Virus genome (UHGV): UHGV-1976345
Length of the DNA: 12,099 bases
From: a virus
Strand: one strand, 5' to 3'
Within the stretch, counting starts at the first letter, position 1. Every line of letters begins with the position of its first letter. The position numbers and the translations under genes were made by a program. Positions 1 to 12,099 of the stretch are shown in pieces. The notes below the pieces were generated by a model that was given only the letters and a program-made list of their open reading frames with translations, was not told the origin of the DNA and did no database searches.

Positions 1-33
1 ACACTCTTTCCCTACACGACGCTCTTCCGATCT
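1..33. other. Illumina TruSeq adapter (technical sequence, not biological)
   Basis: Bases 1-33 read ACACTCTTTCCCTACACGACGCTCTTCCGATCT, identical to the 3' 33 nt of the TruSeq universal adapter / Read 1 primer site; genomic sequence starts at 34. Confidence 0.95.
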
Positions 34-236
34 CGCAGCTGCTCTGTCATGATTTCCACGTCTGCCAGCTCTGCCGCGAGGTCACTTTCGCTGCCCTGTC
101 CGTTCAGGTTGCGGGCAGCACTGGCCGCCAGTTCAGCGGCCTCTTCTGTCAGTTTCAGGGCCTGTGCATCCGGACCGAAACGCTGCAGGGCCAGACGGTA
201 GAGGGCGGTGCGGGTGAGTTCGGTGTTCCGTGTCAT
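12..236 (-). CDS. Hypothetical small phage protein, 3'-partial; possible all-alpha MazG-like NTP pyrophosphohydrolase fold
   Basis: ORF track 12..236 (-). ATG at 236-234 with GAGGG Shine-Dalgarno about 9 nt upstream. The last 7 residues (RDRKSVV) and the stop are encoded by adapter bases 12-33, so the true C-terminus lies off the contig. KLTEEAAELAAS and DLAAELADVEIM resemble the EExxE and ExxD helices of MazG/HisE-type domains (recollection, not searched). Confidence 0.45.
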   Translation of the reverse strand: MTRNTELTRTALYRLALQRFGPDAQALKLTEEAAELAASAARNLNGQGSESDLAAELADVEIMTEQLRDRKSVV

Positions 237-245
237 GCCGCGCCC

Positions 246-518
246 TCAGTGTTTCCGGTCGACGGTGATGTTCAGGCCGCCTTCTGCAGTGGTTTCCACC
301 CGGTACGGCACCTCGTGCTCTGCCGTGTGGGTGAGTGTGTTCATCAGTACCTGCAGGGCAGCCGCCTTTCCGTTGGTTGCCACAATGGCCTGAGCGGCCA
401 TGCTGATTAACGCCGTCAGGACGTGCTTCACATCGGTGAGGTCGCGGCATTCACACTCGTTGACATAGTGTTCAACAAGGGTTCGGGTGCGCTGTCGTGC
501 TTCCTGTGGGGTAATCAT
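246..518 (-). CDS. Hypothetical protein, 90 aa, phage early-region type
   Basis: ORF track 246..518 (-). ATG at 518-516 with GGGAGGA Shine-Dalgarno 7 nt upstream. Start overlaps the stop of the upstream zinc-ribbon ORF (ATGA) and the stop lies 9 nt from the next start, i.e. operon-style packing. No family recognised. Confidence 0.55.
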   Translation of the reverse strand: MITPQEARQRTRTLVEHYVNECECRDLTDVKHVLTALISMAAQAIVATNGKAAALQVLMNTLTHTAEHEVPYRVETTAEGGLNITVDRKH

Positions 519-709
519 TGCGCGTCCTCCCTGTCAGGGCGGGAGAATTCCATGACGGGCACGTCCGCCGAAAAATGCTGGCTGCAGTACGGACAGACCA
601 GGGTGACGCGTACCGCAGGGATGTGGTATTTACCGGACATCACGGCGATGGCGCTGTGAAAACGCAGGGCTGTTATATCCCTCTCGCACTGAATACATTT
701 AAATATCAT
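515..709 (-). CDS. Small zinc-ribbon protein, 64 aa, two CxxC motifs
   Basis: ORF track 515..709 (-). ATG at 709-707 preceded by AGAGGAG. Protein has C5-x2-C8 and C39-x2-C42 (CIQC ... CPYC). Family not recognised; Com-like and Ogr-like were considered but the spacing differs. Confidence 0.55.
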   Translation of the reverse strand: MIFKCIQCERDITALRFHSAIAVMSGKYHIPAVRVTLVCPYCSQHFSADVPVMEFSRPDREDAQ

Positions 710-806
710 AATTTAATTCTCCTCTGTTTCCGGCGTGCAGAAGCCCACGGCGCTGACGCCGGAATAAAAAAGAAAATGTTTTTATTAAATAATTAACGTG
801 GTGTGT

Positions 807-1235
807 TTACTGCACATCCTGCTCAAAAGGAATTATTGAAAAATCCTCAATGTCGCTTTTAATGGAAATACCGGGAATATTTTTCACGGCCTCTTTTTCA
901 TTCAGGATAGCGTCTTTATTTATTTCCTCTTTTACACGAATAAAGCGCTCAAGCCCCAGACGTCTCAGTAATTCAATAACATTATCCGCCCCACGGATAC
1001 TGACTGATGGCGGACGGTTTCGCCACTGCACCTCGCCGGTGGTGAGGTTAGCGAACTTCACCTTCCCGTTGCCGGTCAGTTCATCACGGTGCGCCTCACA
1101 CCATGTCTGGATACCGGACTGCAGTTCGGCCATGCGTTTTTTCAGGCTCTCGGTGACCCGGCGAAACATAAAACGGCGATCGAGGATGAGGTGGTTACCT
1201 TTGACAAATCGACAGGGCAGGCCAGACTGGCGCAT
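807..1235 (-). CDS. gam: Mu Gam-family host-nuclease inhibitor, probably 5'-truncated or with uncertain start
   Basis: C-terminal ~120 aa of minus ORF 807..1703 (WCEAHRDELTGNGKVKFANLTTGEVQWRNRPPSVSIRGADNVIELLRRLGLERFIRVKEEINKDAIL...GISIKSDIEDFSIIPFEQ) match the Mu Gam C-terminal region closely from memory. Stop TAA at 809-807. The nearest in-frame ATG is 1235-1233 with no convincing Shine-Dalgarno. Upstream of about 1250 the ORF is only the antisense shadow of the sheath gene. Confidence 0.7.
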   Translation of the reverse strand: MRQSGLPCRFVKGNHLILDRRFMFRRVTESLKKRMAELQSGIQTWCEAHRDELTGNGKVKFANLTTGEVQWRNRPPSVSIRGADNVIELLRRLGLERFIRVKEEINKDAILNEKEAVKNIPGISIKSDIEDFSIIPFEQDVQ

Positions 1236-1250
1236 CCGGTTGTCGCTAAT

Positions 1251-2327
1251 GTGGTGGTGAAAAACAGTGAAGGCAGCACCACCCACACGGCGAACACGGA
1301 CTACCGTGTTGATGCGCAGGCGGGTGTGCTCACGAACCTGGGCAAGGCTATTGAGGCCGGTGGCAGCGTGAAGGTGAGCTATGAGTACGCGGACCCGTCG
1401 AAGGTGACTGCGGCGGACATCATCGGCGGGGTGAACAGCGCCGGAAACCGAACCGGCATGAAGCTGCTTAACGACAGCTTCAACCTGTACGGCTATTTCG
1501 CCAAAATTCTGATTGCGCCGGTGTTCTGCACCCAGAAGAGTGTCGCAGTTGAGCTTATCGCCATGGCAGAGAAGCTGGGCGCGGTAACCTACATTGATGC
1601 GCCTGTCGGTACCACCTTTGCACAGGCTCTGGCAGGTCGTGGCCCGGAAGGCACCATCAACTTCAATACCAGCTCCGACCGCGTCCGTCTGTGCTATCCG
1701 CATGTGAAGGTATATGACCCGGTGACAAACACAGAGCGTCTGGAGCCGCTCAGCCAGCGTGCAGCAGGTCTGCGTGCCAGAGTCGATCTGGACAAGGGCT
1801 ACTGGTGGTCATCCTCCAATCAGGAGATTCTGGGGATCACCGGCGTGGAGCGCCAGCTGTCCGCGATGATTGATGACCCGCAGAGTGAGGTAAACCTGCT
1901 TAACGAACAGGGGATCACCACGGTATTCAGCAGTTACGGCAGCGGCCTTCGTCTGTGGGGTAACCGGACGGCAGCATGGCCAACGGTCACCCATATGCGT
2001 AACTTTGAGAACGTTCGCCGCACCGGTGATGTGATCAACGAGTCCATTCGTTATTTCAGCCAGCAGTACATCGACATGCCGATTACTCAGGCGCTGATTG
2101 ATGCACTGACGGAGTCGGTCAACGCCTACGGTCGCAAAATGACTGGTGATGGTGCGGTACTGGGCTTCCGTTGCTGGTTTGATCCGGCCCGCAATCCGGA
2201 GACGGAGCTGGCCGCCGGGCACCTGTTGCTGAGCTACAAATATACGCCACCACCGCCGCTGGAGCGACTGACGTTTGAGACTGAGATCACCTCGGAATAC
2301 CTGTTAACCCTGAAAGGGGGCAACTGA
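1251..2327 (+). CDS. Contractile tail sheath protein (P2 FI / Mu L family), 5'-truncated, start undefined
   Basis: Plus ORF 1089..2327. Sheath-like motifs run from about 1290 to the stop at 2325-2327 (VKVSYEYADPSKVTAADIIGG, LRLWGNRTAAW, CWFDPARNPETELAAGHLLLSYKYTPPPPLERLTFE). The conserved N-terminal ~100 aa of sheath proteins is absent, there is no in-frame ATG or RBS near the homology start, and 1089-1250 is antisense to gam. Confidence 0.85.
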   Translation: MVVKNSEGSTTHTANTDYRVDAQAGVLTNLGKAIEAGGSVKVSYEYADPSKVTAADIIGGVNSAGNRTGMKLLNDSFNLYGYFAKILIAPVFCTQKSVAVELIAMAEKLGAVTYIDAPVGTTFAQALAGRGPEGTINFNTSSDRVRLCYPHVKVYDPVTNTERLEPLSQRAAGLRARVDLDKGYWWSSSNQEILGITGVERQLSAMIDDPQSEVNLLNEQGITTVFSSYGSGLRLWGNRTAAWPTVTHMRNFENVRRTGDVINESIRYFSQQYIDMPITQALIDALTESVNAYGRKMTGDGAVLGFRCWFDPARNPETELAAGHLLLSYKYTPPPPLERLTFETEITSEYLLTLKGGN

Positions 2328-2848
2328 TGTCAAAGATTGAGATAAACCGCATCACGAATGCCAACATCTATCTGGATGGTACTAACCTGCTGGGACGGGC
2401 TGAGGAAGTTAAACTCCCCGATGTCTCCATGATTATGCAGGAACACAAGGCGCTGGGGATGGTGGGTAAGGTGGAACTCCCGGCTGGTTTTGACAAACTG
2501 GAAGGCGAAATCAAATGGAACAGCTTTTACCGCGATGCGATGCTGTCTGCCGCGAACCCGTACAGGTCGCTGGCACTGCAGTGTCGTTCCAGCGTCCAGC
2601 GCTACAGCTCGCAGGGGCTGATTGACGAAATCCCGCTGGTCACCTTCCTGACGATTATGTTCAAGAAGAACCCGCTGGGGACGTTCAAACAGCACGAGAA
2701 CGCCGAGTTCTCCAGTAGCTTCACCTGCACGTATATCAGACAGGTACTGGATGGTGAAGAGCTGCTGCAACTGGACTATCTGGCCAACATCTTCCGGGTC
2801 GGCGGTGTTGATCAACTGACTGACTACCGTATCAATATCGGGGGCTGA
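2327..2848 (+). CDS. Tail tube protein (P2 FII family)
   Basis: ORF 2327..2848, 173 aa. ATG overlaps the sheath stop (TGATG) with AAGGGGG upstream. C-terminal FTCTYIRQVLDGEELLQLDYLANIFRVGGVDQLTDYRINIGG resembles the conserved P2 FII-type tube C-terminus (recollection). Confidence 0.9.
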   Translation: MSKIEINRITNANIYLDGTNLLGRAEEVKLPDVSMIMQEHKALGMVGKVELPAGFDKLEGEIKWNSFYRDAMLSAANPYRSLALQCRSSVQRYSSQGLIDEIPLVTFLTIMFKKNPLGTFKQHENAEFSSSFTCTYIRQVLDGEELLQLDYLANIFRVGGVDQLTDYRINIGG

Positions 2849-2850
2849 CG

Positions 2851-3132
2851 ATGAGTGTTGAACTGACGGATAAAGGAAGACGATGTGCGGCACTGGGCAT
2901 GTCAAATGGTACGTGGTTTACCCTCCTTGATATTCCGGGGGTGGAAACCCTTTTTAATACCCGTAAAACCAATGACCCGATTGACTGCACACGTTCAAAG
3001 GCCCGCAAACTGGCGGATTTGATTGAAGCATGGGAGCCTCCCGACCACTGGTTCTCCGGCACCGGCAAATCTGAGGGAAAGACGCTTCTCATCGCTTTCC
3101 TGCGTAACTGCAAGGGGTTTCGCACTTGCTGA
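2851..3132 (+). CDS. Hypothetical 93-aa protein between tube and chaperone genes (possible moron)
   Basis: ORF 2851..3132. ATG sits 2 nt after the tube stop with GGGGG Shine-Dalgarno 7 nt upstream, and is followed by a hairpin terminator. No family recognised. Uses several rare codons (AGA, CGA, GGA, CTT), so coding status is not certain. Confidence 0.45.
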   Translation: MSVELTDKGRRCAALGMSNGTWFTLLDIPGVETLFNTRKTNDPIDCTRSKARKLADLIEAWEPPDHWFSGTGKSEGKTLLIAFLRNCKGFRTC

Positions 3133-3138
3133 CATCAC

Positions 3139-3165
3139 AGGGGCTCCGGCCCCTTCTTCTTAATC
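3139..3165 (+). terminator. Putative intrinsic terminator or attenuator
   Basis: Perfect 6-bp GC-rich stem AGGGGC (3139-3144) / GCCCCT (3149-3154) with 4-nt loop TCCG, followed by T-rich TCTTCTTAATCTCCTTT, 7 nt after the ORF93 stop. Confidence 0.45.
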
Positions 3166-3229
3166 TCCTTTAATATCCGTCACGCGCTTCTCCCGACATA
3201 CTGCCCTGAACTTACACAGGAGCACAATC

Positions 3230-3565
3230 ATGTCACAGACCCCATCCGATACTTTTAAATTGTCTTATCCCTTCACCACTGCTGCAGGCACCAGAATTGA
3301 GCAGGTTGAACTGAAACGCCTGACGGTAAAAGACCTGAAGCAGGTGCGCAAAATCAGCAAAAACCCGGCAGACTGGGACGAACCGCTGATTGCCCGCAGT
3401 ACTGGTCTTCTCCCGGAAGATCTCGACAATATGGATCTGGCTGATTACCTGCAGTTACAGAAACGATTTCAGCTCATCACGGGGATGGGTGAGAGCAACC
3501 AGGGCGCTGACGCAGGCGCAGGGGCTGCTGGCGAGATGGTTCCGGTTTCAGCCGGGGGAGATTGA
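3230..3565 (+). CDS. Tail assembly chaperone, gpE-like (P2 E / lambda G analogue)
   Basis: ORF 3230..3565, 111 aa. AGGAG 7 nt upstream of the ATG. Lies immediately upstream of the tape measure gene and has a Gly/Ala-rich C-terminus, as in E/G-type chaperones; an overlapping out-of-frame extension ORF is present. Confidence 0.8.
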   Translation: MSQTPSDTFKLSYPFTTAAGTRIEQVELKRLTVKDLKQVRKISKNPADWDEPLIARSTGLLPEDLDNMDLADYLQLQKRFQLITGMGESNQGADAGAGAAGEMVPVSAGGD

Positions 3566-3647
3566 TGCCCTCGATACTGACGATCTGGAGATGTGGCTGG
3601 AGCAGGCTGAAGAGCAAATAAAAAGCGAGTACGGCGACAAATCATAG
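3230..3647 (+). CDS. Putative frameshift product E+E' (tail assembly chaperone, long form)
   Basis: ORF 3390..3647 (codon starts at positions divisible by 3) overlaps the 3' end of E (codon starts at positions with remainder 2). Its last 30 codons encode an acidic, protein-like peptide (GEIDALDTDDLEMWLEQAEEQIKSEYGDKS) ending 75 nt before the tape measure start. A GGGGG run at 3554-3558, two codons before the E stop, is the candidate slip site. Offset is +1 or -2, not -1. Confidence 0.5.
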
Positions 3648-3652
3648 TACAG

Positions 3653-3673
3653 ACAGCCGCCAGTAGCGGCTGT
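3653..3673 (+). promoter_or_regulatory. Stem-loop between E' stop and tape measure start
   Basis: ACAGCCGC (3653-3660) / GCGGCTGT (3666-3673), 8-bp stem with 5-nt loop, followed by a moderately T-rich tract (TCTGCGTTATCCCC). The tape measure RBS GGAGG follows at about 3709. Confidence 0.3.
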
Positions 3674-3722
3674 TCTGCGTTATCCCCTCACGTCTTTTCA
3701 CCTTCCCCGGAGGTTAACCACT

Positions 3723-6674
3723 ATGTCGGGACAGTTTTCAGTCGGCGTTGTTATCGGCGGGATGATTGGCAGCACATTCCGTTCTGCAATGAGCGGTACC
3801 CGCCGTGCGCTTGATTCCCTGAGCGATACCTCACGCCGCCTGCAGGAACGTCAGAACGCTTTAACCCGTGCAACAGAACGTTATGGTCAACTGGGTTCTT
3901 CCCGGATGCAGCATCTCAACAGCGAGCTGCTGCGGGTAAGCCGCACCATGGAGCAAATTGAGCGCCAGCAGCGCCGTCTGTCAGCGGCATCCGCTACCAG
4001 TGATGCGCTGAAAGCTAACCGCATGGCGCTGTATGGTCAGGGGATTGAAGCGTATGGCATGGCACAGACTGTTTATCATACGGTTTCCCCTGCCGTTCAG
4101 CAGTCCATGTCTTTTCAGGACAAAATGATTGATATGTCGATCACCGCAAAATATGACAATAAAACGCGGGATGGACTTGCCGGACAGATAAAAGGCTGGG
4201 CGCTTAAATACAATCAGTATCAGGATGAGCTGCAGGAGGCGGTGGGTTCACTCATCAGCGACAATATTGATAATGTGTCAGATATCGGTTTTCTGATGCC
4301 GGATATTGCCCGCGCGGCAACGGCAACACGCACGTCTGCTCAGGACTGGGCAAAAGTGGCCGCAGTCTGGCAAAACTCCCTGAAAGGTGCGGCCAGAGAT
4401 TTTGGTGCCGTTCAGAATATTATGGCTTATGCCGGTGACCAGGGGTCATTTGAAATCCCGGATCAGGTCAAGTGGATGCAGTCCCTGGCCCCAATGATGG
4501 CGGGTATTGCCAGTGGAAAAGAGGCTGTTGCTGAAATCGGGGCCAGTCTCCAGATAGCAAAAATCGGTGCAGGTTCCACCGACGAAGCAGCCAATAATTT
4601 TAAAAACTTTCTTACCAAAATTTTTGCCCGCGATACTCAGAAACAGTTTGCTGATCTGGGTATTGATTTGCAGGGATCTATTGCGAGTTATAAAGCTGCG
4701 GGGATCTCTCCGATTGAAGGGATGTTGAGTGTTATAGAACGTTACCTCAATGCCAAAAGCCCCGAAGCGCTGGCCGGCTTCAAATCAGCCATGAAAATAA
4801 AGAATGATACGGCAAGAGATGAGGCACTTCAGGCTCTGGCGAAAAACTTTGGTCTGGGCGATATGTTCGCGGATATGCAGGTCATGGCATTTATCCGCCC
4901 GATGCTGGCCAACATGGACAGATATCGAGAGATCCGTGCCGGTGCTCTCAGGGCTGCGGATAACGATTTGCTTGCCAGTGCTTATGATCAGCGGCTGAAA
5001 TCTCCCCTTGAAGCCACTAAAACACTTATGGTCAGCAGTCGCGATCTGGCAATTACGCTGGGCGATCAATTAGCTCCATCTTTTATTTCTTTGACTCAGG
5101 AACTGCTTCCACTCATTCAGGGGGCAAAACACTGGGTAGCGACTCACCCGCAATTTGTCAGTGGGGCTTTTAAGCTCATCAGTGCGCTCCTTGCGATTAA
5201 GATAGCGACTGTTGGTCTCAAACTGGGGCTGAATCTCCTTATTTCCCCCTTTGTAAGTGTCTGGAAAAATGCTGTTTTACTTCGGGCCAACTGGCTTCGT
5301 CTGTCGCTCGCACTGGGGCAAGGCGGTAAGCTCCGCTGGCTGGTGACCGGATTTAGCGCCGTCGCCAGAGGAGCCAGAACACTGAGTGGCGTGCTCTCCG
5401 GGGGGCTGGTTCGCGGAATTATGCTCGCCGGACGTGCTGTTCTCTGGATTGGAGGTGCGCTGATGATGAATCCCATCGGTCTCGTTATCACCGCTGTCGC
5501 GGCAGCAGCTTACCTTATCTACCGCAACTGGGGGGCAGTCAGTGGCTGGTTTAAACAGCGCTGGGCAGACATTCAGGAAGCCTTTAACGGCGGCATTGTG
5601 GGAACTGGTAAGTTGCTGATTAACTGGTCGCCGGCAGGCCTGCTCTATAAAGCCTTTGCGGCTGCGCTGAAATATTTCGGCGTTGCTCTGCCGGCAAAGT
5701 TCACCGACTTCGGTGGCCATCTTATCGACGGTCTGATTAACGGTATCAAAAACAAATGGGGGTCGCTCAAATCCAGTGTAACCGGAATGGGTGACAGCAT
5801 CAGTAGCTGGTTTAAACAGTGCTGGGCTGACATTCAGGAAGCCTTTAACGGCGGTATCGCGGGAACTGGTAAGCTGCTGATTAACTGGTCGCCGGCAGGT
5901 CTGCTCTATAAAGCCTTTGCAGCTGCGCTGAAATATCTTGGTGTTGATCTGCCGGCAAAGTTTACCGACTTCGGTGGCCATCTTGTCGATGGTCTGATTA
6001 ACGGTATCAAAAACAAATGGGAGTCGCTCAAATCCAGTGTAACCGGAATGGGTGACAGCATCAGTGGCTGGTTCAGCGAAAAGCTGGGCATTCATTCGCC
6101 GAGCCGCGTGTTTATGGGCTTTGGTGACAATATCGCGCAGGGGGCCGCCATTGGCCTGCAGCGGACCACTCCGCTTGCAGCTCTGGCCGGGCAGCGAATG
6201 GCCAGTGAACTGCTCCCCAGAATGCCCGTGAGCATCCAGGGGCCAGAAATACGGGATAACACTTCAGGTGTTCGCTTCAGTATGCCGTTGCCCGATATCA
6301 ATGGGTTTATGTCGTCTGCTAAAAATGCGATCGGAGCCGTAATCAATAGTTTGTCTTCCATGCCCGCTATTCCGCTCTCCACCCGGGCATCGATTTTACC
6401 AGGGCAACGTCTGGCAAATGAGATGACACCGGATGTTCCCCGTATCCCCTCGCCTGAAATCCTGGCTGCCGGATATTCAGGCCGTGGTGCAGCTGCAACC
6501 GGCGGTGGAACGTCTGGTGGTATCCAGGTCAGCTTTAATCCTCAGTTTTTCCTCAATGGCAGGGAAACCACAGCGCCTGCAGGACTGACTGGTGCCCTGA
6601 ATATGAGTCTGCATGAGCTGGAAAAAATGCTGGAGCGTCTGCTGGCTCAGAAACAACGTAAGGAGTACCGCTGA
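3723..6674 (+). CDS. Tail tape measure protein (P2 T family)
   Basis: ORF 3723..6674, 983 aa. Position after the E/E' pair, Ala/Gln-rich helical N-terminal region, long hydrophobic Gly/Ala/Leu-rich central segment (about residues 480-600) and an internal tandem repeat are all typical of tape measure proteins. GGAGG 9 nt upstream of the ATG. Confidence 0.9.
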   Translation: MSGQFSVGVVIGGMIGSTFRSAMSGTRRALDSLSDTSRRLQERQNALTRATERYGQLGSSRMQHLNSELLRVSRTMEQIERQQRRLSAASATSDALKANRMALYGQGIEAYGMAQTVYHTVSPAVQQSMSFQDKMIDMSITAKYDNKTRDGLAGQIKGWALKYNQYQDELQEAVGSLISDNIDNVSDIGFLMPDIARAATATRTSAQDWAKVAAVWQNSLKGAARDFGAVQNIMAYAGDQGSFEIPDQVKWMQSLAPMMAGIASGKEAVAEIGASLQIAKIGAGSTDEAANNFKNFLTKIFARDTQKQFADLGIDLQGSIASYKAAGISPIEGMLSVIERYLNAKSPEALAGFKSAMKIKNDTARDEALQALAKNFGLGDMFADMQVMAFIRPMLANMDRYREIRAGALRAADNDLLASAYDQRLKSPLEATKTLMVSSRDLAITLGDQLAPSFISLTQELLPLIQGAKHWVATHPQFVSGAFKLISALLAIKIATVGLKLGLNLLISPFVSVWKNAVLLRANWLRLSLALGQGGKLRWLVTGFSAVARGARTLSGVLSGGLVRGIMLAGRAVLWIGGALMMNPIGLVITAVAAAAYLIYRNWGAVSGWFKQRWADIQEAFNGGIVGTGKLLINWSPAGLLYKAFAAALKYFGVALPAKFTDFGGHLIDGLINGIKNKWGSLKSSVTGMGDSISSWFKQCWADIQEAFNGGIAGTGKLLINWSPAGLLYKAFAAALKYLGVDLPAKFTDFGGHLVDGLINGIKNKWESLKSSVTGMGDSISGWFSEKLGIHSPSRVFMGFGDNIAQGAAIGLQRTTPLAALAGQRMASELLPRMPVSIQGPEIRDNTSGVRFSMPLPDINGFMSSAKNAIGAVINSLSSMPAIPLSTRASILPGQRLANEMTPDVPRIPSPEILAAGYSGRGAAATGGGTSGGIQVSFNPQFFLNGRETTAPAGLTGALNMSLHELEKMLERLLAQKQRKEYR
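5547..6068 (+). repeat. In-frame tandem duplication (2 x 261 bp) inside the tape measure gene
   Basis: Copy 1 at 5547-5807 and copy 2 at 5808-6068 both begin TGGTTTAAACAG; about 17 mismatches over 261 bp (roughly 93% identity by hand count). Encodes two 87-aa units, WFKQ(R/C)WADIQEAFNGGI...GMGDSIS(S/G). A third unit starts at 6069 (TGGTTCAGCG) then diverges. Confidence 0.9.
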
Positions 6675-7558
6675 TGTTTGCCGTACTGGGTGATATTGAG
6701 TTTGAGCTGATTACCTACTGGGACGGCTTCGAGGCCACGTTCGGCGTCGATTATGCGGAGCATGCCCGCATCGGGGGTAAGCCTGGCCTGCAGTTCGTCG
6801 GCGACAGGCTGGACGAAATCCAGATAACTCTGGTTTTCCATCAGCATTATTGTGTACCCGATGTGGAGCTGGCGAGACTGCGAACAGCCATGAAAGCCCA
6901 TCAGGCACTGGCGCTGGTCTTCGGCAACGGTGACTATCGCGGCTGGTTCGTGATTACCGATGTGACTGCAACCAGCGAGCAGACTGACAGTACCGGCAAC
7001 GTGCTGGCTGTCAGTGCCACCGTGTCTCTCCGGGAATACACCGGTGACCCGAAAAATCCTCTGCAACCACCGGCAATACGCACGAAGCTCCCGGGTGTCG
7101 GGGCGGTCTCCGGTGCCATACCTTCACCTTCAGGGGTGGCGCAGTTCATCCGCAACGGCGTCAACTATGCGAAACAGGCGCAGTCTGTACTCCAGACCAC
7201 TATCAGCGCCGTTCGGGTGACACAGAAAATGAAGGATAACCCCGTTGTCGCACTGACCCGTGTGCCGGGGCTGATGAGCGGACTGGGTAATATCTCCGGG
7301 GCTCTGGGGAAAAGTGTTCCGGCGTTTAACGCACTCTCTGAATCCATGCCCGATGCCATCAGTCTGGCCAGAACAGCCAGCGAAGCAGCCACGTATGTAC
7401 AGCAGGCACAGTCTGCGCTGAGTGGTGTGGACAAAAGAAATATTGCAGGTGCTCTGGATACCGTTTCCGGGCAGCTTAACGCCGCCGGCACAGCATTCAA
7501 CCGCATGTCTCCGGGATTAAGTGCAATGGCCGCCAGAATACTGACGAGGAGTGTGTGA
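6674..7558 (+). CDS. gpU-family tail protein with about 150-aa C-terminal extension
   Basis: ORF 6674..7558, 294 aa. ATG overlaps the tape measure stop (TGATG) with AAGGAG upstream. The N-terminal ~130 aa fit the P2 gpU pattern (LGxIEFE...IGGKPGLQFVGDRLDEIQITLVF...GWFVITDV). The remainder is Ala/Ser/Gly/Gln-rich and unassigned. Confidence 0.75.
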   Translation: MFAVLGDIEFELITYWDGFEATFGVDYAEHARIGGKPGLQFVGDRLDEIQITLVFHQHYCVPDVELARLRTAMKAHQALALVFGNGDYRGWFVITDVTATSEQTDSTGNVLAVSATVSLREYTGDPKNPLQPPAIRTKLPGVGAVSGAIPSPSGVAQFIRNGVNYAKQAQSVLQTTISAVRVTQKMKDNPVVALTRVPGLMSGLGNISGALGKSVPAFNALSESMPDAISLARTASEAATYVQQAQSALSGVDKRNIAGALDTVSGQLNAAGTAFNRMSPGLSAMAARILTRSV

Positions 7559-7770
7559 TGTTTCTTGAACATGTTACCCGTGACGGAGAGCGCTGGGATT
7601 CGCTGGCATGGCAGTACTACGGTGACCCGCTGGGCTATCCCCGGATTATTGCCGCCAATCCGCACGTGGCCATCACGCCGGTGCTGCCCTCCGGGCTGTT
7701 GTTACTGATCCCGGTGATTGAGGCTGAAGAAGCCCGTACAGAAGAGGATATTGCCCCATGGCTGAGATAA
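7558..7770 (+). CDS. Tail protein X (LysM-like, P2 gpX family)
   Basis: ORF track 7555..7770 (GTG at 7555; ATG at 7558 is the more likely start and overlaps the U stop). MFLEHVTRDGERWDSLAWQYYGDPLGYPRIIAANPHV fits the gpX LysM-like pattern. GAGGAG upstream. Confidence 0.85.
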   Translation: MFLEHVTRDGERWDSLAWQYYGDPLGYPRIIAANPHVAITPVLPSGLLLLIPVIEAEEARTEEDIAPWLR

Positions 7771-8912
7771 ACAGCACTGCGCAAGTCACATCAGCGTTAA
7801 CCGGCGTCAGCGATGTGCTGACACCGGTGTTCACTTTGTGGTATCTGCAGAAAAACATCACCTCTGATATCGCGCCTTATGTCACCCGTGTGACCTGGAG
7901 CGATAACATCAAAAATGAGTCCGATACCATTGAGGTGGAGCTGGACGACACCGATGGCCGCTGGCTGGATAAATGGTATCCGGGCAAGGGTGACACGCTG
8001 ACGCTGAAAATGGGCTATCAGGGCGAGAAGCTGCTGTCCTGCGGTACGTTCTCTATAGACGAGATCGAAGTGAGTTCGCCCGCTTCCGTTGTTTCTATCC
8101 GTGGGGTGGCCACCTCGGTTAACAGTGCCCTGCGGACTAAAACCAGTCGTGGTTTTGAGAACACCACGCTGGCAGCTGTTGCGGGGCGGATTGCCAGAAA
8201 GCACCGACTGAAACTGGTGGGCAGCATTGAGTCCATCAGAATCGACCGGGTGACCCAGTATGCTGAAACCGACGTGGGTTTTCTGCGCCGGCTGGCCAGC
8301 GAGTATGGTTATGCAGTGAAAGTGGTCAGTGACCAGCTGATTTTTTCTCATCTGGCCACACTGCGCAGTCAGGAGCCGGTCAGGCAGTTAAAACCGCAGG
8401 ATGTGGCCCGCTTTTCCCTGCGTGACACCATCAACCGGGTCTATAAATCTGCAAAGGTAAAACACCAGAAAAGCAGCAGTAAAAAACTGATCGTCTACGA
8501 AGCTGATGGTGGTACCCGTGAAAGCGACAAAAAGCTCAAAGGTGGTAAGGTTACCAGCGCTGACTCACTTAAAGTTAACAGCCGCGTCAGCGACCCGGAC
8601 AGTGCCCGGATTAAAGCGGATTCAGCACTGGCCAGACATAACGAATACCAGCAGAACGGCTCCCTGACGCTGACGGGAACACCTCAACTGACAGCAGGCA
8701 ACAAAATTGAACTGGTGGGTTTTGGGCAGTTATCCGGGCCATGGCTCATAACCACTGCCCGCCATGCGTTTGACCGTAACAGCGGCTACACCACAGAGCT
8801 GGAAGTGGCACGGGGGCCAGTCACAAGAGGGAAAAAACAAAAAACTCAGAAACTCACGGTTTATCACCCGGATGGCAGTACATCGACGGTGATTAAGGAG
8901 AAGAAAAAATGA
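7758..8912 (+). CDS. Baseplate hub / late control protein D (P2 gpD family)
   Basis: ORF 7758..8912, 384 aa, similar in size to P2 gpD. Start overlaps the X 3' end by 13 nt with GAGGA 11 nt upstream. Has gpD-like motifs (FSIDEIEV, YAETDVGFLRRLASEYGYAVKV) and sits after X and before V. Confidence 0.9.
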   Translation: MAEINSTAQVTSALTGVSDVLTPVFTLWYLQKNITSDIAPYVTRVTWSDNIKNESDTIEVELDDTDGRWLDKWYPGKGDTLTLKMGYQGEKLLSCGTFSIDEIEVSSPASVVSIRGVATSVNSALRTKTSRGFENTTLAAVAGRIARKHRLKLVGSIESIRIDRVTQYAETDVGFLRRLASEYGYAVKVVSDQLIFSHLATLRSQEPVRQLKPQDVARFSLRDTINRVYKSAKVKHQKSSSKKLIVYEADGGTRESDKKLKGGKVTSADSLKVNSRVSDPDSARIKADSALARHNEYQQNGSLTLTGTPQLTAGNKIELVGFGQLSGPWLITTARHAFDRNSGYTTELEVARGPVTRGKKQKTQKLTVYHPDGSTSTVIKEKKK

Positions 8913-9505
8913 CTGGTGTCACTCGTCAGGTCGGTACGGTCAGTGCCGTTGATGCCGACAGGGTTCAGGCCCGCGTTCGTCTGCCTGAATGCGATAACCT
9001 GCGCACAAACTGGCTTAACGTGCTGCAGCGCAATACCCAGGATAACAAAGATTACTGGCTCCCTGACGTGGGGGAGCAGGTTGAGGTGCTGCTCGATGCC
9101 AACGGCGAGGATGGTGTTATTCTGGGCGCGGTGTATTCAGACGTCGATAAACCACCGTTCAGTGACAAAAATATCCGGGGAACCCGGTTTGCTGATGGTG
9201 CAGAGTACAGCTACAACCGGAAGACGCACACTCTGACCATCCGGGGCGGCATTGAGCATATTGTCATTGAGTGTGGTGCTGATGTGGTATTGAAAACACA
9301 GAAAGCCACGATTGACGCACCGGAAACCGAACTTACCGGAGATCTGCGTGTCAGGGGTAAGCTGATTTACGAAGGAGGCATGGCGGGTTCTGGTGGTGAA
9401 GGTGTTACCGCGACCATCCATGGCAATATCGAGATTAAAGGGAATGCCCATGCCACGGGCAGTATGTTGTCTGATGGCGAAAACTCCAGCCACCACTCCC
9501 ACTGA
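8909..9505 (+). CDS. Baseplate central spike protein (P2 gpV family)
   Basis: ORF 8909..9505, 198 aa. ATGA overlap with D and AAGGAGA upstream. WLPDVGEQVEVLL and a C-terminal Gly-rich beta-helix-like region ending in the His-rich SSHHSH match the gpV pattern. Confidence 0.9.
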   Translation: MTGVTRQVGTVSAVDADRVQARVRLPECDNLRTNWLNVLQRNTQDNKDYWLPDVGEQVEVLLDANGEDGVILGAVYSDVDKPPFSDKNIRGTRFADGAEYSYNRKTHTLTIRGGIEHIVIECGADVVLKTQKATIDAPETELTGDLRVRGKLIYEGGMAGSGGEGVTATIHGNIEIKGNAHATGSMLSDGENSSHHSH

Positions 9506-9541
9506 GCTTTTTAAACGCCTTTAATATCAGCGTTCCCGCAC

Positions 9542-9559
9542 GGGGGCAATACTGCCCCC
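9542..9559 (+). promoter_or_regulatory. GC-rich stem-loop directly abutting the gpW start codon
   Basis: GGGGGCA (9542-9548) / TGCCCCC (9553-9559), 7-bp stem with ATAC loop; the W ATG begins at 9560. No T-tract follows, so it is not called a terminator. Confidence 0.35.
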
Positions 9560-9907
9560 ATGAAAACAACCTCAGTATTCTGGCAACCGACCCTGCAGGC
9601 TCCCGGCGAAATTGTCCGGGGGCTGGATGATATCCGGCAGGCGATTCAAATTATCCTGCGGACTCCCCGCGGCAGCGACCCGCATCGCCCGGAGTTCGGC
9701 AGCAATCTGCATCTTTATATCGACTGGCCTGTAGACCGGGCCATTCCGCATGTGGTGCGCGAATCCGTCGATGCCATCCGGCGCTGGGAGCCCCGCTGCC
9801 AGCTTATGTCAGTTAAACCCGCCGTCGACGGCGAACATCTTACGCTCCGGGTGAGCTGGAAAGGCTCAGACGGACAGACCCGGACTCAGGAGCTGCTATG
9901 GCGCTGA
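9560..9907 (+). CDS. Baseplate wedge protein (P2 gpW / T4 gp25-like)
   Basis: ORF 9560..9907, 115 aa. IRQAIQIILRTPRGSDPHRPEFGSNL and RRWEPRCQL match the GPW/gp25 pattern (ILxTPxGS ... WEPR). Confidence 0.85.
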   Translation: MKTTSVFWQPTLQAPGEIVRGLDDIRQAIQIILRTPRGSDPHRPEFGSNLHLYIDWPVDRAIPHVVRESVDAIRRWEPRCQLMSVKPAVDGEHLTLRVSWKGSDGQTRTQELLWR

Positions 9908-11001
9908 CAGAACCCGATTTTATTGAACGCGATGCCGACAAAATCACGGCAGAAATGATTGCGAAGTATGAAGCGGATACCGGCAAAACGCTGTACCCGG
10001 CACAGGCAGAACGTCTGCTGATTGATCTGTGGGCCTATCGCGAAATGCTGGTCAGGGTTGCGGTACAGGAGGCAGCAAAGCAGAATCTGGTCGCCTTTGC
10101 CCGTGAGCCGATGATTGATTACCTCGGTGAACTGGTCGGTGTATACCGTCTTGCCGCGCAGCCTGCCACTACCACGCTCCAGTTCTCCGTAGATGAGGCA
10201 CTGGCCATTGATGTGCTGATCCCGGCAGGCACCCGCGTCAGCGCTTCCGACAGCGTTATTTTTGCCACCGATACAGATGTGGTACTGAAGGCCGGATTGC
10301 TGCTGGTCAATGTCACGTCCACCTGTACCGAACCCGGTACCGCTGGTAACGGCTGGCAACCTGCGCAGGTCAGTCAGTTACTCGATGAGATTGATAACGT
10401 CGACCTGCTGGTGAGCAATCTGACGGCCAGTTCCGGCGGTTCAGAACAGGAAGACGATGACAGGCTCCGGGAGCGTATCAGGCTGGCCCCGGAGTCATTC
10501 ACCAATGCCGGAAGCCGTGGCGCATACCGCTTTCATGCCATGCAGGCCCATCCCAACATTGTCGATGTTGCTGTGCTTTCCCCGGTTCCCGGGACCGTAG
10601 ATCTGTATCCGCTGCTCAGTACCGGTCTGCCGGACGGCGGTGTTCTCACGCTGGTAGAGAGTTTCTGCTCTGATGAGAAAGTCAGGCCACTCACTGATAC
10701 AGTGCGGGCTAAAACACCAGTGAAGGTGGATTACACCATTGAAGCCAAGATTACGATCTATCGTGATCAGGATGCCAGGTCTGTAAAAGATGCCGCTAAC
10801 AGCGCCATACAGAACTGGGTGGCATCACGTGCCGCCACGCTGGGGCGCGATATTGTCCCCAGCCAGATTATCAGTGCATTGTCCGTTTCCGGGGTGTACC
10901 AGGTTGAACTGGTGACACCGGCACTGCGGGTGGTGGCAGAAAACGAATGGGCAAACTGTACGGCAATCACTCTTAACATGACTGGAGTGTCTGATGACTG
11001 A
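9898..11001 (+). CDS. Baseplate protein J (P2 gpJ / T4 gp6-like)
   Basis: ORF 9898..11001, 367 aa. Overlaps the W stop by 10 nt with AGGAG upstream. SFTNAGSRGAYRFHAMQAHPNIVDVAV and LGRDIVPSQIISALSVSGVYQVEL match conserved gpJ regions. Confidence 0.9.
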   Translation: MALTEPDFIERDADKITAEMIAKYEADTGKTLYPAQAERLLIDLWAYREMLVRVAVQEAAKQNLVAFAREPMIDYLGELVGVYRLAAQPATTTLQFSVDEALAIDVLIPAGTRVSASDSVIFATDTDVVLKAGLLLVNVTSTCTEPGTAGNGWQPAQVSQLLDEIDNVDLLVSNLTASSGGSEQEDDDRLRERIRLAPESFTNAGSRGAYRFHAMQAHPNIVDVAVLSPVPGTVDLYPLLSTGLPDGGVLTLVESFCSDEKVRPLTDTVRAKTPVKVDYTIEAKITIYRDQDARSVKDAANSAIQNWVASRAATLGRDIVPSQIISALSVSGVYQVELVTPALRVVAENEWANCTAITLNMTGVSDD

Positions 11002-11572
11002 GCCATTACAACTCCCGCCACCGCTTGAGGGTGATATCAGTCTCAGGACGCTGGGAAGACTGGCAGGACGGCTGGATAACATCGACCTGAGCGTACTGAT
11101 GGTCTTTCTCGTCGATATCGTCGACAGTTCCGCGCTGCCATGGCTGGGCGAGCAGTTCTCACTGTCTGGCGATGGCTGGGAGCTGGCGGAATCGGACGAT
11201 GTTCGCCGCATGCTTATAAAAGCAGCCATCGAACTGCACCGGTATAAAGGGACGCCGTGGTCAATCCGGGAAGTTATCCGCCGTTTTGGCTTTGGTGAAG
11301 TGGATCTGATTGAAGGCACAGGTCGTCTCAGTTACGACGGCAATCGCAGCTATAACGGACTGTTTGTTCATGGAGATGCAGCCGCCTGGGCAGTTTATCG
11401 CGTTATTCTGAAACAGCCCATTACTAACGATCAGGCCGCGATGCTGCGTCAGACGCTGGCTGCATTTGCACCGGCCCGCTGCCATCTGGCCAGCCTGGAG
11501 TATCAGTCTGTGGCCATTCGCTATAACAATACCGCCATCCATGATGGCAGTTATAACCACGGGAGCAGTTGA
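10994..11572 (+). CDS. Baseplate / tail protein I (P2 gpI family)
   Basis: ORF 10994..11572, 192 aa. Overlaps the J stop by 8 nt with GGAG upstream. ALPWLGEQFSL ... HRYKGTPWSIREVIRRFG fits the gpI pattern (LPWLA ... H.KGT). Confidence 0.85.
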   Translation: MTEPLQLPPPLEGDISLRTLGRLAGRLDNIDLSVLMVFLVDIVDSSALPWLGEQFSLSGDGWELAESDDVRRMLIKAAIELHRYKGTPWSIREVIRRFGFGEVDLIEGTGRLSYDGNRSYNGLFVHGDAAAWAVYRVILKQPITNDQAAMLRQTLAAFAPARCHLASLEYQSVAIRYNNTAIHDGSYNHGSS

Positions 11573-11574
11573 TT

Positions 11575-12099
11575 ATGGGAAACCTGAATGAAACAGAAAA
11601 GTGGGAAGAAAATATCTATCAACTGGAGACATCAGATCCGGTTCTGGGTGGTGCAGACGGGATATCAAATCGAGCCCCCCGGCAACTGGCAAACAGGACG
11701 AAATGGCTGAAGAAAAAAACGGAGGAAGCCGCACAGTCACTGGCTGAACACGTACGTTCCCGTAACCACCCGGACGCGACACTGACAGCTAAGGGGTTCA
11801 CCCAACTGAGCAGTGCCACCAACAGCACCTCTGAAACGCTGGCCGCCACACCAAAGGCCGTCAAGGCTGCATATGACCTGGCTGCCGGCAAGGCCCCCGT
11901 CAGCCATACTCACCCGTGGAGTCAGATAACGGGAGTGCCTGCTGCCTCGCTGACGGCAAAAGGCACCGTACAACTGAGCAGCGCCACGGACAGTCAATCA
12001 GAAACTGAGGCTGCCACGCCGAAGGCGGTCAAGGCTGTATACGACCTTGCAGCCGGCAAGGCGCCCGTCAGCCACACTCACCCGTGGAGTCAGATAACG
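11575..12099 (+). CDS. Tail fiber protein (P2 gpH-like), 5' portion only; runs off the window end
   Basis: ATG at 11575, 2 nt after the I stop, with GGGAG upstream; frame is open to 12099 and not in the ORF track because no stop is reached. Contains HPDATLTAKGFTQLSSATNSTSETLAATPKAVKAAYDLA, the conserved fiber collar repeat seen in P2 H and lambda-type side tail fibers. Confidence 0.85.
   Translation, partial: MGNLNETEKWEENIYQLETSDPVLGGADGISNRAPRQLANRTKWLKKKTEEAAQSLAEHVRSRNHPDATLTAKGFTQLSSATNSTSETLAATPKAVKAAYDLAAGKAPVSHTHPWSQITGVPAASLTAKGTVQLSSATDSQSETEAATPKAVKAVYDLAAGKAPVSHTHPWSQIT
11782..12099 (+). repeat. Tandem tail-fiber repeat (2 units of about 150 nt, 168-nt period)
   Basis: Unit 1 at 11782-11931 and unit 2 at 11950-12099, both ending GCCGGCAAGGC(C/G)CCCGTCAGCCA(T/C)ACTCACCCGTGGAGTCAGATAACG. 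The 5' halves differ at many synonymous sites; the 3' ~45 nt are nearly identical. The window ends exactly at the end of unit 2. Confidence 0.85.

What the first reader, a model, noticed from the sequence alone, without database searches (positions are those of the whole stretch)
1251..12099. Tail module gene order differs from canonical P2 although several families are P2-type
The order here is sheath, tube, E/E', tape measure, U, X, D, V, W, J, I, H on one strand. In P2 the baseplate and fiber genes V-W-J-I-H precede FI-FII-E-T-U-D and X lies elsewhere. Sheath-first order together with a Mu Gam-family gene nearby suggests a Mu-like or mosaic phage, or a phage-tail-like element, rather than a true P2 relative. 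No head, lysis, integrase or regulatory genes lie within the window, so a tailocin cannot be excluded or confirmed.
Basis: partly seen in the sequence, partly recalled or inferred. Interest (0 to 1): 0.4.

Follow-up and report, generated by a model that had tools for sequence, protein, structure and literature searches.

The report
BcepMu-type E. coli prophage tail genes
This is the ordinary tail-gene block of a well-known, widespread Mu-like (BcepMu-type) transposable prophage of E. coli, and its odd left edge (cut sheath gene next to a cut gam gene, after a sequencing adapter) is not seen in any other genome searched and is either an assembly artefact or a deletion private to the source strain.

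Summary
Pfam confirms sheath, tube, E, tape measure, U, X, D, V, W, J, I and H on the + strand. It is not unusual: it matches Burkholderia phage BcepMu gp39-gp52 gene for gene (31-75% identity). That genus combines Mu-type transposition and head genes with P2-family tail proteins in sheath-first order.

The window is nearly identical to a complete ~38 kb prophage in E. coli HSP60. Bases 34-1156 match with no mismatch and bases 1155-12099 with one mismatch. That prophage has a transposase, lysis genes, terminase, portal, capsid and a full 475-aa sheath. Related copies occur in 682 of 5,426 complete E. coli genomes, at different insertion sites, and as the isolated phage PhiKM (Bcepmuvirus). The tailocin reading is therefore rejected.

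The window itself is a flawed contig:
- Bases 1-33 are an Illumina adapter.
- At 1155/1156 a 3' fragment of gam is fused to a sheath gene lacking its first 85 codons, skipping 20,574 bp of the intact prophage.
- This junction is absent from all 640 E. coli genomes that match that stretch and from three other collections.
- The contig ends inside 168-nt fibre-gene repeats.

The finding is already known and of low interest.

The parts
1..33 (.). Illumina TruSeq adapter sequence (ACACTCTTTCCCTACACGACGCTCTTCCGATCT), not biological
   Evidence: Read directly. Its identity as the adapter is from my own knowledge of the sequence. The same 33 nt occur at 100% identity in unrelated deposited phage records, at or within about 20 nt of a record end in two of them. 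Phage homology starts at base 34.
34..236 (-). 5' part of an early-region nucleoside triphosphate pyrophosphohydrolase gene, cut by the contig start
   Evidence: phrog_2245, E 3e-22. Corresponds to WP_000197789.1 in E. coli HSP60 and Ecol_745.
246..518 (-). Early-region hypothetical gene (90 aa)
   Evidence: phrog_3691, E 3e-54, full length. Annotated as WP_021526141.1.
515..709 (-). Early-region hypothetical gene (64 aa)
   Evidence: phrog_3401, E 1e-40, full length. Annotated as WP_000576352.1.
807..1156 (-). 3' fragment of the gam gene (host-nuclease inhibitor), C-terminal ~115 of 176 codons; the 5' end is missing
   Evidence: Pfam Phage_Mu_Gam matches profile positions 40-148 of 149 only. 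phrog_491 matches positions 57-173 of 176. The full gene is 531 nt in Ecol_745 and HSP60.
1155..1156 (.). Junction not found elsewhere, with a 2-nt (GA) overlap, joining mid-gam to mid-sheath and skipping 20,574 bp of the intact prophage
   Evidence: Alignments. Absent from all 640 E. coli complete genomes that match window 34-2300 and from IMG/VR, GTDB genomes and JGI metagenomes.
1155..2327 (+). Tail sheath gene (P2 FI family), 3' 390 codons; the first 85 codons, start codon and upstream signals are missing
   Evidence: Pfam Phage_sheath_1 and Phage_sheath_1C. 75.5% identity to BcepMu gp39 and 33% to P2 FI. The full gene is 1428 nt.
2327..2848 (+). Tail tube gene (P2 FII family)
   Evidence: Pfam Phage_tube, E 3e-53. 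67% identity to BcepMu gp40.
2851..3132 (+). Conserved 93-aa ORF of unknown function between tube and chaperone genes
   Evidence: phrog_1239, E 5e-48. Annotated as hypothetical in PhiKM and E. coli. No match in BcepMu.
3230..3647 (+). Tail assembly chaperone E (3230-3565) with an overlapping E'-like extension ORF in the +1/-2 frame (open to 3647)
   Evidence: Pfam Phage_TAC_7, E 3.5e-22. Frame analysis and the motif shared with P2 E' and the BcepMu gp41 +1 frame are. The shift site was not located.
3723..6674 (+). Tape measure protein (983 aa), containing a 261-nt tandem duplication at 5539-6073
   Evidence: Pfam PhageMin_Tail. Tandem repeat found. 31% identity to BcepMu gp44.
6674..7558 (+). 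gpU-family tail protein (294 aa; GpU domain plus a C-terminal extension)
   Evidence: Pfam Phage_P2_GpU, E 7e-39, residues 6-123. phrog_788 full length. 46% identity to BcepMu gp45.
7558..7770 (+). Tail protein X
   Evidence: Pfam Phage_tail_X, E 4e-18. 56% identity to BcepMu gp46.
7758..8912 (+). gpD-family baseplate hub protein
   Evidence: Pfam Phage_GPD. 49% identity to BcepMu gp47 and 33% to P2 D.
8909..9505 (+). gpV-family baseplate spike
   Evidence: Pfam Phage_base_V. 48% identity to BcepMu gp48.
9560..9907 (+). gpW/gp25-family baseplate wedge protein
   Evidence: Pfam GPW_gp25. 61% identity to BcepMu gp49.
9898..11001 (+). gpJ-family baseplate protein
   Evidence: Pfam Baseplate_J, E 1e-68. 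55% identity to BcepMu gp50 and 27% to Mu gp47.
10994..11572 (+). gpI-family baseplate/tail protein
   Evidence: Pfam Tail_P2_I, E 1e-24. 63% identity to BcepMu gp51.
11575..12099 (+). 5' 175 codons of tail fibre gene H; the window ends inside its 168-nt tandem repeats
   Evidence: Pfam Phage_fiber_2, E 4e-39. The full gene is 1614-1668 nt. Repeat offsets are shown.

Best explanation
Window 1155-12099 is the contractile-tail gene module of a BcepMu-type (genus Bcepmuvirus) temperate transposable phage that is common as a prophage in E. coli.

In the intact phage these genes follow the head genes on one late transcript strand. The roles below are inferred from homology to P2 and BcepMu proteins, not shown here:
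- D, V, W, J, I, U and X build the baseplate and hub.
- The tape measure protein sets tail length, with help from the E/E' chaperones. E' is made by a shift into the +1/-2 frame.
- Tube and sheath polymerise on the baseplate, and H fibres bind the host.

Sheath-first order with P2-family proteins and X between U and D is the normal layout of this genus. It is not a rearranged P2 and not a tailocin.

The left 1.15 kb belongs to the same phage's early region, but its position is not native. The contig begins with a sequencing adapter. It then joins mid-gam to mid-sheath across a 20.6 kb gap that, in intact copies, holds the transposase, repressor, lysis, packaging and head genes. I consider this junction somewhat more likely a chimeric short-read assembly than a private deletion (roughly 60:40). 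Either way the window does not encode a working tail, because the sheath gene has lost its start and first 85 codons.
For: Identity to complete phages:
- PhiKM (Bcepmuvirus) matches at about 98-99% identity. Its record holds terminase, portal, head and a full sheath gene upstream of the same tail genes.
- E. coli HSP60 matches window 34-1156 at 1123/1123 bases and window 1155-12099 at 10944/10945 bases. The matches lie inside a complete ~38 kb prophage between sufC and sufB.
- The same prophage splits a DUF2300 gene in strain Ecol_745. Two insertion sites indicate transposition.
- 682 of 5,426 complete E. coli genomes match the tail module, 473 of them over at least 80% of it.

Gene order:
- BcepMu gp39-gp52 match all 12 named tail genes in the same order, at 31-75% identity.
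- Seven proteins plus H match P2 at 26-39% identity (H 65% locally), but in P2's different order.
- Mu shares the order, but only J is detectable by BLASTP.
- PMC2771037 describes BcepMu tail proteins as recognisably related to those of P2, in a Mu-like transposable phage.

Junction:
- The overlap is 2 nt.
- No E. coli genome among the 640 with a match holds it, and IMG/VR, GTDB genomes and JGI metagenomes give no exact match.
- The adapter occupies 1-33.
- The contig ends in the fibre repeats.
Against: Nothing argues against the identification as a Bcepmuvirus-type tail module.

For the junction, no reads are available, so a genuine private deletion cannot be excluded. The two blocks are colinear and in the same orientation, as a simple deletion would leave them. 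The contig passes through the junction without breaking, which fits a source sample that lacks the parental path.

The E/E' shift site and direction (+1 or -2) were not determined.

I did not test whether the E. coli prophage forms virions. PhiKM is deposited as an isolated phage, but only as a partial genome.
Confidence: 0.93

Rival explanations
1. The gam|sheath junction is a genuine 20.6 kb internal deletion in the source strain. The element would then be a decaying, immobile prophage remnant. It would keep the end of the early operon and the tail genes. It would have lost the transposase, repressor, lysis, packaging and head genes and the start of the sheath gene.
For: The two blocks are colinear, in the same orientation and from the same phage type. 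Both match HSP60 with at most one mismatch. A 2-nt microhomology is typical of illegitimate recombination. The contig runs through the junction without a break.
Against: The junction is absent from all 640 complete E. coli genomes with a match and from three other collections. The contig carries an untrimmed adapter, and its left block is only 1.1 kb long before the adapter. That pattern points to patchy coverage and artefact-prone assembly. No chimeric ORF spanning the junction is on record in the gene collection.
Confidence: 0.38
2. The module is a tailocin or other phage-tail-like particle locus: a domesticated tail cluster without a head that is used as a bacteriocin.
For: No head, packaging or lysis genes lie inside the window. 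Tail-only clusters built from P2-family proteins exist elsewhere, for example BceTMilo in Burkholderia (PMC5411513).
Against: A copy of the DNA differing by one mismatch sits in a complete prophage with terminase, portal, capsid, lysis and transposition genes. So do the other copies inspected (Ecol_745; phage PhiKM). The sheath gene in the window lacks its start and 85 codons, so it cannot make a contractile particle. No lysis or regulatory cassette is attached.
Confidence: 0.02
3. The module belongs to a true P2-like (Peduoviridae) phage whose tail operons were rearranged.
For: Ten of the tail proteins fall in Pfam families named after P2 genes or represented by them. Seven of them, plus H, align to P2 proteins.
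Against: Identity to P2 is only 26-39%, against 31-75% to BcepMu. Intact copies carry Mu-type Mor, GemA, Gam, an rve transposase, Mu-type terminase, portal and F/G head genes, and no P2 int, cox, A or ogr. They sit at different chromosomal sites. GenBank classifies PhiKM as Bcepmuvirus.
Confidence: 0.01

Closest known systems
E. coli Bcepmuvirus-type prophage / Escherichia phage PhiKM (PQ738613.1); prophages in E. coli HSP60 (NZ_CM137001.1) and Ecol_745 (NZ_CP015074.2)
   Same: The DNA is essentially the same: one mismatch to HSP60 and about 98-99% identity to PhiKM. Gene content and order are identical from sheath to fibre, and the left block carries the same early-region genes.
   Different: The window lacks the 20,574 bp between mid-gam and mid-sheath, carries an adapter at its start, and stops inside gene H.
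Burkholderia phage BcepMu (NC_005882), type species of Bcepmuvirus
   Same: The order sheath-tube-chaperone-TMP-U-X-D-V-W-J-I-H is the same (gp39-gp52). All 12 named tail proteins align at 31-75% identity, and the E' extension is in the +1/-2 frame in both.
   Different: The host is different. BcepMu has no counterpart of the 93-aa ORF at 2851-3132. The E. coli relatives carry an invertible fibre segment with a recombinase, whereas BcepMu is reported to have no tail-fibre inversion system (PMC2771037).
Enterobacteria phage P2 (NC_001895)
   Same: The protein families are shared: FI, FII, E, T, U, X, D, V, W, J, I and H. Sheath, tube, D, V, W, J and I align at 26-39% identity, and H at 65% locally. 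The order within each block (V-W-J-I-H and FI-FII-E-T-U-D) is kept.
   Different: The two blocks are in the opposite order. In P2, X lies in the head/lysis operon, but here it lies between U and D. P2 makes E' by a -1 shift. P2 replicates and integrates by A/int, not by transposition.
Enterobacteria phage Mu (NC_000929)
   Same: The overall tail order is sheath-first: L, M, chaperone, tape measure, gp43, hub, gp45-gp48, fibre, then an invertible fibre segment. Gam, Mor, GemA and the Mu-type head and packaging genes are present in intact copies. Mu is reported to use a -2 chaperone frameshift (PMC5009743).
   Different: The tail proteins are not detectably similar by BLASTP, except J with gp47 (27%, E 2e-6). 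Mu has no X gene at this position. The transposase is of the rve/Tn552 type rather than MuA.

Membership tests
Bcepmuvirus-type (BcepMu-like) transposable myophage | Tail cassette of P2-family proteins in the order sheath, tube, chaperone, TMP, U, X, D, V, W, J, I, H | tested here: met
   Pfam results. Colinear tblastn hits to BcepMu gp39-gp52 at 31-75% identity.
Bcepmuvirus-type (BcepMu-like) transposable myophage | Early genes on the opposite strand, including Mor, GemA, an ExeA-like protein and an rve (Tn552-type) transposase, followed by lysis genes and Mu-type head genes on the top strand | tested here: met
   The window itself holds only the gam fragment and three small early genes. The feature is met in copies with at most one mismatch to the window's sequence: HSP60, Ecol_745 and PhiKM. 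The layout matches that of BcepMu and its description in PMC2771037.
Bcepmuvirus-type (BcepMu-like) transposable myophage | Insertion at varied chromosomal sites by transposition | tested here: met
   The prophage lies between sufC and sufB in HSP60 and inside a DUF2300 gene next to yfaP in Ecol_745. The prophage ends and target-site duplications were not examined.
Bcepmuvirus-type (BcepMu-like) transposable myophage | Production of infectious virions with host DNA at the genome ends | not testable with these tools
   PhiKM is deposited as an isolated phage with a partial genome.
P2-like phages (Peduoviridae) | Tail genes arranged as V-W-J-I-H-G before FI-FII-E/E'-T-U-D, with X in the head/lysis operon | tested here: not met
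   P2 record against the window order.
P2-like phages (Peduoviridae) | P2-type head (Q, P, O, N, M, L), int/cox/C control and A-dependent rolling-circle replication | tested here: not met
   Intact copies carry Mu-type packaging and head genes and a transposase instead.
Tailocin / phage-tail-like bacteriocin | Tail gene cluster that in its native locus lacks capsid, packaging and replication genes | tested here: not met
   The native locus in HSP60, Ecol_745 and PhiKM holds terminase, portal, protease and capsid genes directly upstream. The headless appearance of the window comes from a junction found nowhere else.
Tailocin / phage-tail-like bacteriocin | Complete sheath and tube genes able to form a contractile particle | tested here: not met
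   The sheath gene lacks its first 85 codons and start signals.
Muvirus (phage Mu proper) | Sequence similarity of structural proteins and a MuA-type transposase | tested here: not met
   BLASTP of sheath, tube, U and D against the Mu proteins in the same positions found nothing significant; only J matched gp47. The transposase of intact copies is annotated as having an integrase (rve) catalytic domain.

The most novel reading that the evidence does not exclude
The gam|sheath junction is a real 20.6 kb deletion. The source strain would then carry a freshly inactivated Bcepmuvirus remnant. It would have no transposase, repressor, lysis genes or head, and a truncated sheath gene. That would be a snapshot of prophage decay, not a new kind of element.
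Probability: 0.38. Interest if true: 0.08.

Novelty: already known. Interest (0 to 1): 0.05.

Why it matters
It matters little biologically. The arrangement of P2-family tail proteins in Mu-like order within a transposable phage has been described since BcepMu (2004), and this E. coli prophage is present in about one in eight complete E. coli genomes.

The practical value is as a caution. The apparently headless tail cluster with gam beside it comes from a contig that carries an adapter and a junction not seen in any other genome. Such contigs can mimic tailocins or mosaic elements in genome scans.

Tried and rejected
- I searched for the exact 40-nt junction in IMG/VR, GTDB species genomes and JGI metagenomes and found no match.
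- I looked for the two chimeric ORFs that span the junction (298 aa on the minus strand, 412 aa on the plus strand) in the gene-position collection. Neither is on record, so the source contig and any independent copies of the junction could not be traced.
- I tried to locate the E/E' frameshift site by comparing the window with BcepMu. G-runs occur at 3481, 3521 and 3554 in the window. BcepMu has no run of four or more identical bases in the scanned end of gp41, so the site stays unresolved.
- BLASTP of sheath, tube, U and D against the Mu proteins in the same positions gave nothing significant. The Mu resemblance is therefore one of order and lifestyle, not detectable tail-protein sequence, apart from J.
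- I considered intramolecular replicative transposition as the source of the junction and rejected it. Neither breakpoint lies at a prophage end.
- Loci L003, L006 and L008 were not available to the scripts. BcepMu was therefore re-fetched as L007, and Mu was compared pair by pair instead.
Full report
**1. What is in the window**

Six-frame ORF listing and Pfam scans show one continuous run of + strand genes from about 1155 to the end of the window:
- sheath (Phage_sheath_1 and 1C)
- tube (Phage_tube, E 3e-53)
- a 93-aa ORF
- an E-type chaperone (Phage_TAC_7)
- a 983-aa tape measure protein
- GpU, tail X, GPD, base_V, GPW, Baseplate_J (E 1e-68), Tail_P2_I
- the first 175 codons of a fibre gene with Phage_fiber_2 repeats

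In NC_001895 the V-W-J-I-H-G operon precedes FI-FII-E/E'-T-U-D, and X lies in the head/lysis operon.

**2. What it belongs to**

Megablast against phage records gave Escherichia phage PhiKM (PQ738613.1, genus Bcepmuvirus) at 98.8% identity over 1155-12099. In that record the same tail genes follow terminase, portal, Mu F/G-type morphogenesis genes, capsid genes and a full 1428-nt sheath gene. The record also holds Mor/C, GemA, Gam, an Eha/ExeA-like protein, a transposase, a Dam methylase and a lysis cassette.

Among 5,426 complete E. coli genomes, 682 match the tail module, 473 of them over at least 80% of it. E. coli HSP60 is identical over window 34-1156 (1123/1123 bases) and has one mismatch over 1155-12099 (10944/10945). 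There the DNA lies in a complete ~38 kb prophage between sufC and sufB. In strain Ecol_745 the same prophage splits a DUF2300 gene beside yfaP. Two different insertion sites, each with a split or flanked host locus, are what a transposable phage leaves behind.

**3. Is the gene order unusual?**

It is not. The type phage BcepMu (NC_005882) has gp39-gp52 in exactly this order, and its record labels them by their P2 counterparts.

| Comparison | Result |
|---|---|
| BcepMu | All 12 named tail proteins colinear; sheath 75.5%, tube 67%, I 63%, W 61%, X 56%, J 55%, H 50% (60 aa), D 49%, V 48%, U 46%, TMP and E 31% |
| P2 | Sheath, tube, D, V, W, J, I at 26-39%; H 65% locally; hits lie in P2's own order |
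| Mu | Sheath-first layout shared; only J/gp47 detectable (27%, E 2e-6); sheath, tube, U/gp43 and D/gp44 not |

The module is thus 'P2 families in Mu order', which is the published description of this genus. Lavigne et al. 2009 (PMC2771037) state that BcepMu replicates by transposition like Mu and has a Tn552/IS1604-type transposase. They also state that its tail cassette proteins are recognisably related to those of P2. Bcepmuvirus prophages in E. coli ST131 and in gut isolates are mentioned in recent work.

**4. The left edge of the window is not native**

Bases 1-33 read ACACTCTTTCCCTACACGACGCTCTTCCGATCT. I recognise this as the 3' end of the Illumina TruSeq universal adapter; that recognition is my own knowledge. 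Consistent with it, the same 33 nt appear at 100% identity in unrelated phage records from Enterococcus, Klebsiella, Bifidobacterium and Chryseobacterium hosts. In two of those records the match lies at the first base or about 20 nt from the last.

Bases 34-1156 are early-region DNA of the same phage, with genes on the minus strand: the start of an NTP pyrophosphohydrolase gene, two small hypothetical genes, and the 3' two-thirds of gam. At 1155/1156 this block is joined, with a 2-nt GA overlap, to the sheath gene at its codon 86.

In Ecol_745 and HSP60 the two breakpoints are 20,574 bp apart. The skipped interval holds:
- the gam 5' end
- the ExeA-like protein, the transposase and the repressor region
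- the Dam methylase
- holin, SLT and spanin
- terminase, portal and capsid genes
- head-tail connector genes
- the sheath 5' end

None of the 640 E. coli genomes that match window 34-2300 has the two halves adjoining; no place covers 80% or more of that stretch, and the median is two separate places per genome. An exact 40-nt junction probe found nothing in IMG/VR, GTDB genomes or JGI metagenomes. The window's right end falls inside tandem 168-nt repeats of the fibre gene, a typical short-read contig break.

The window therefore looks like a short-read contig built from untrimmed reads. The junction is either a chimera or a deletion private to the source. I lean towards chimera, about 60:40. 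The reason is the adapter, and the fact that the left block runs only 1.1 kb before the adapter. Without reads this cannot be settled.

Intramolecular transposition is not a good explanation, because neither breakpoint is at a prophage end.

**5.

'Mu-like or mosaic phage rather than a true P2 relative' is right. 'Tailocin cannot be excluded' no longer holds. The native locus has a complete head and packaging module and an intact sheath 5' end. In addition, the sheath gene as present in the window lacks its start and 85 codons and could not support a contractile particle.

**6. How it works (inferred from homology, not tested)**

In the intact prophage the late activator of the Mor/C family would switch on the top-strand late genes. 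The baseplate assembles from D (hub), V (spike), W, J, I, U and X. The tape measure protein, held by the chaperones E and E', sets the length of the tube (FII), around which the sheath (FI) polymerises. H fibres, with a fibre assembly protein and an invertible alternative fibre segment downstream of the window, determine host range.

E' is reached by a shift into the +1/-2 frame. The extension carries a motif (F-x-x-x-P-S/G-E-I/L ... D-D/E ... W) shared with P2 E' and with the +1 frame after BcepMu gp41. P2 uses a -1 shift, and Mu is reported to use -2 (PMC5009743; PMC2628397). I could not locate the shift site.

**7. Verdict**

Interest is 0.05.

Noticed in passing
window 1-33: Untrimmed Illumina TruSeq adapter at the contig start. 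The same 33 nt also sit in several unrelated deposited phage records (OR360270.1 1-33, OU509537.1 58535-58567, PQ571273.1 259-291, KT254133.1, MW202825.1), which suggests adapter contamination in public phage genomes.
   Followed up: partly
window 5539-6073: A 261-nt (87-codon) tandem duplication lies inside the tape measure gene (2.0 copies, 93% match). Some E. coli copies of the prophage are 261 nt shorter overall (H49, H50; I did not map where), which would fit one copy fewer. The PhiKM record has a sequencing gap here. If the copy number does vary, tail length should differ between strains.
   Followed up: partly
window 11803-12099 (and L002 30649-31401, L009 35552-36136): The tail fibre gene H contains tandem 168-nt (56-codon) repeats. 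The window ends within them. Some E. coli copies of the prophage are 168 nt longer overall (H45, H46; position not mapped), which would fit one extra repeat.
   Followed up: partly
window 3390-3647: The E' chaperone extension is in the +1/-2 frame relative to E, as in BcepMu, whereas P2 uses -1. G-runs at 3481, 3521 and 3554 are candidate slip sites, but no run of four or more identical bases is present in the scanned end of BcepMu gp41.
   Followed up: partly
L009 35156-38979 and L002 30421-33826 (downstream of the window): The E. coli prophage carries inverted partial fibre genes and a recombinase after H and the fibre assembly gene. This looks like a Mu G-segment-type invertible host-range switch, whereas BcepMu is reported to have no tail-fibre inversion system (PMC2771037).
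   Followed up: no
window 2851-3132: A conserved 93-aa ORF of unknown function (phrog_1239; sub-threshold DUF7739 hit) lies between the tube and chaperone genes. It is present in PhiKM and the E. coli prophages but has no match in BcepMu.
   Followed up: partly
window 6674-7558: The gpU homologue is 294 aa: a GpU domain at residues 6-123 plus a C-terminal extension of about 170 aa that is glycine/alanine-rich over the stretches shown. The extension is shared with BcepMu gp45 (296 aa). P2 gpU is 159 aa.
   Followed up: no
L004 7381-8289 with L002 33901-34650, versus L009 74-820 and 39017-40522: The same prophage sits at two different chromosomal sites. In Ecol_745 it splits a DUF2300 gene; in HSP60 it lies between sufC and sufB, inside the suf iron-sulfur cluster operon. 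The second position might affect suf expression.
   Followed up: no
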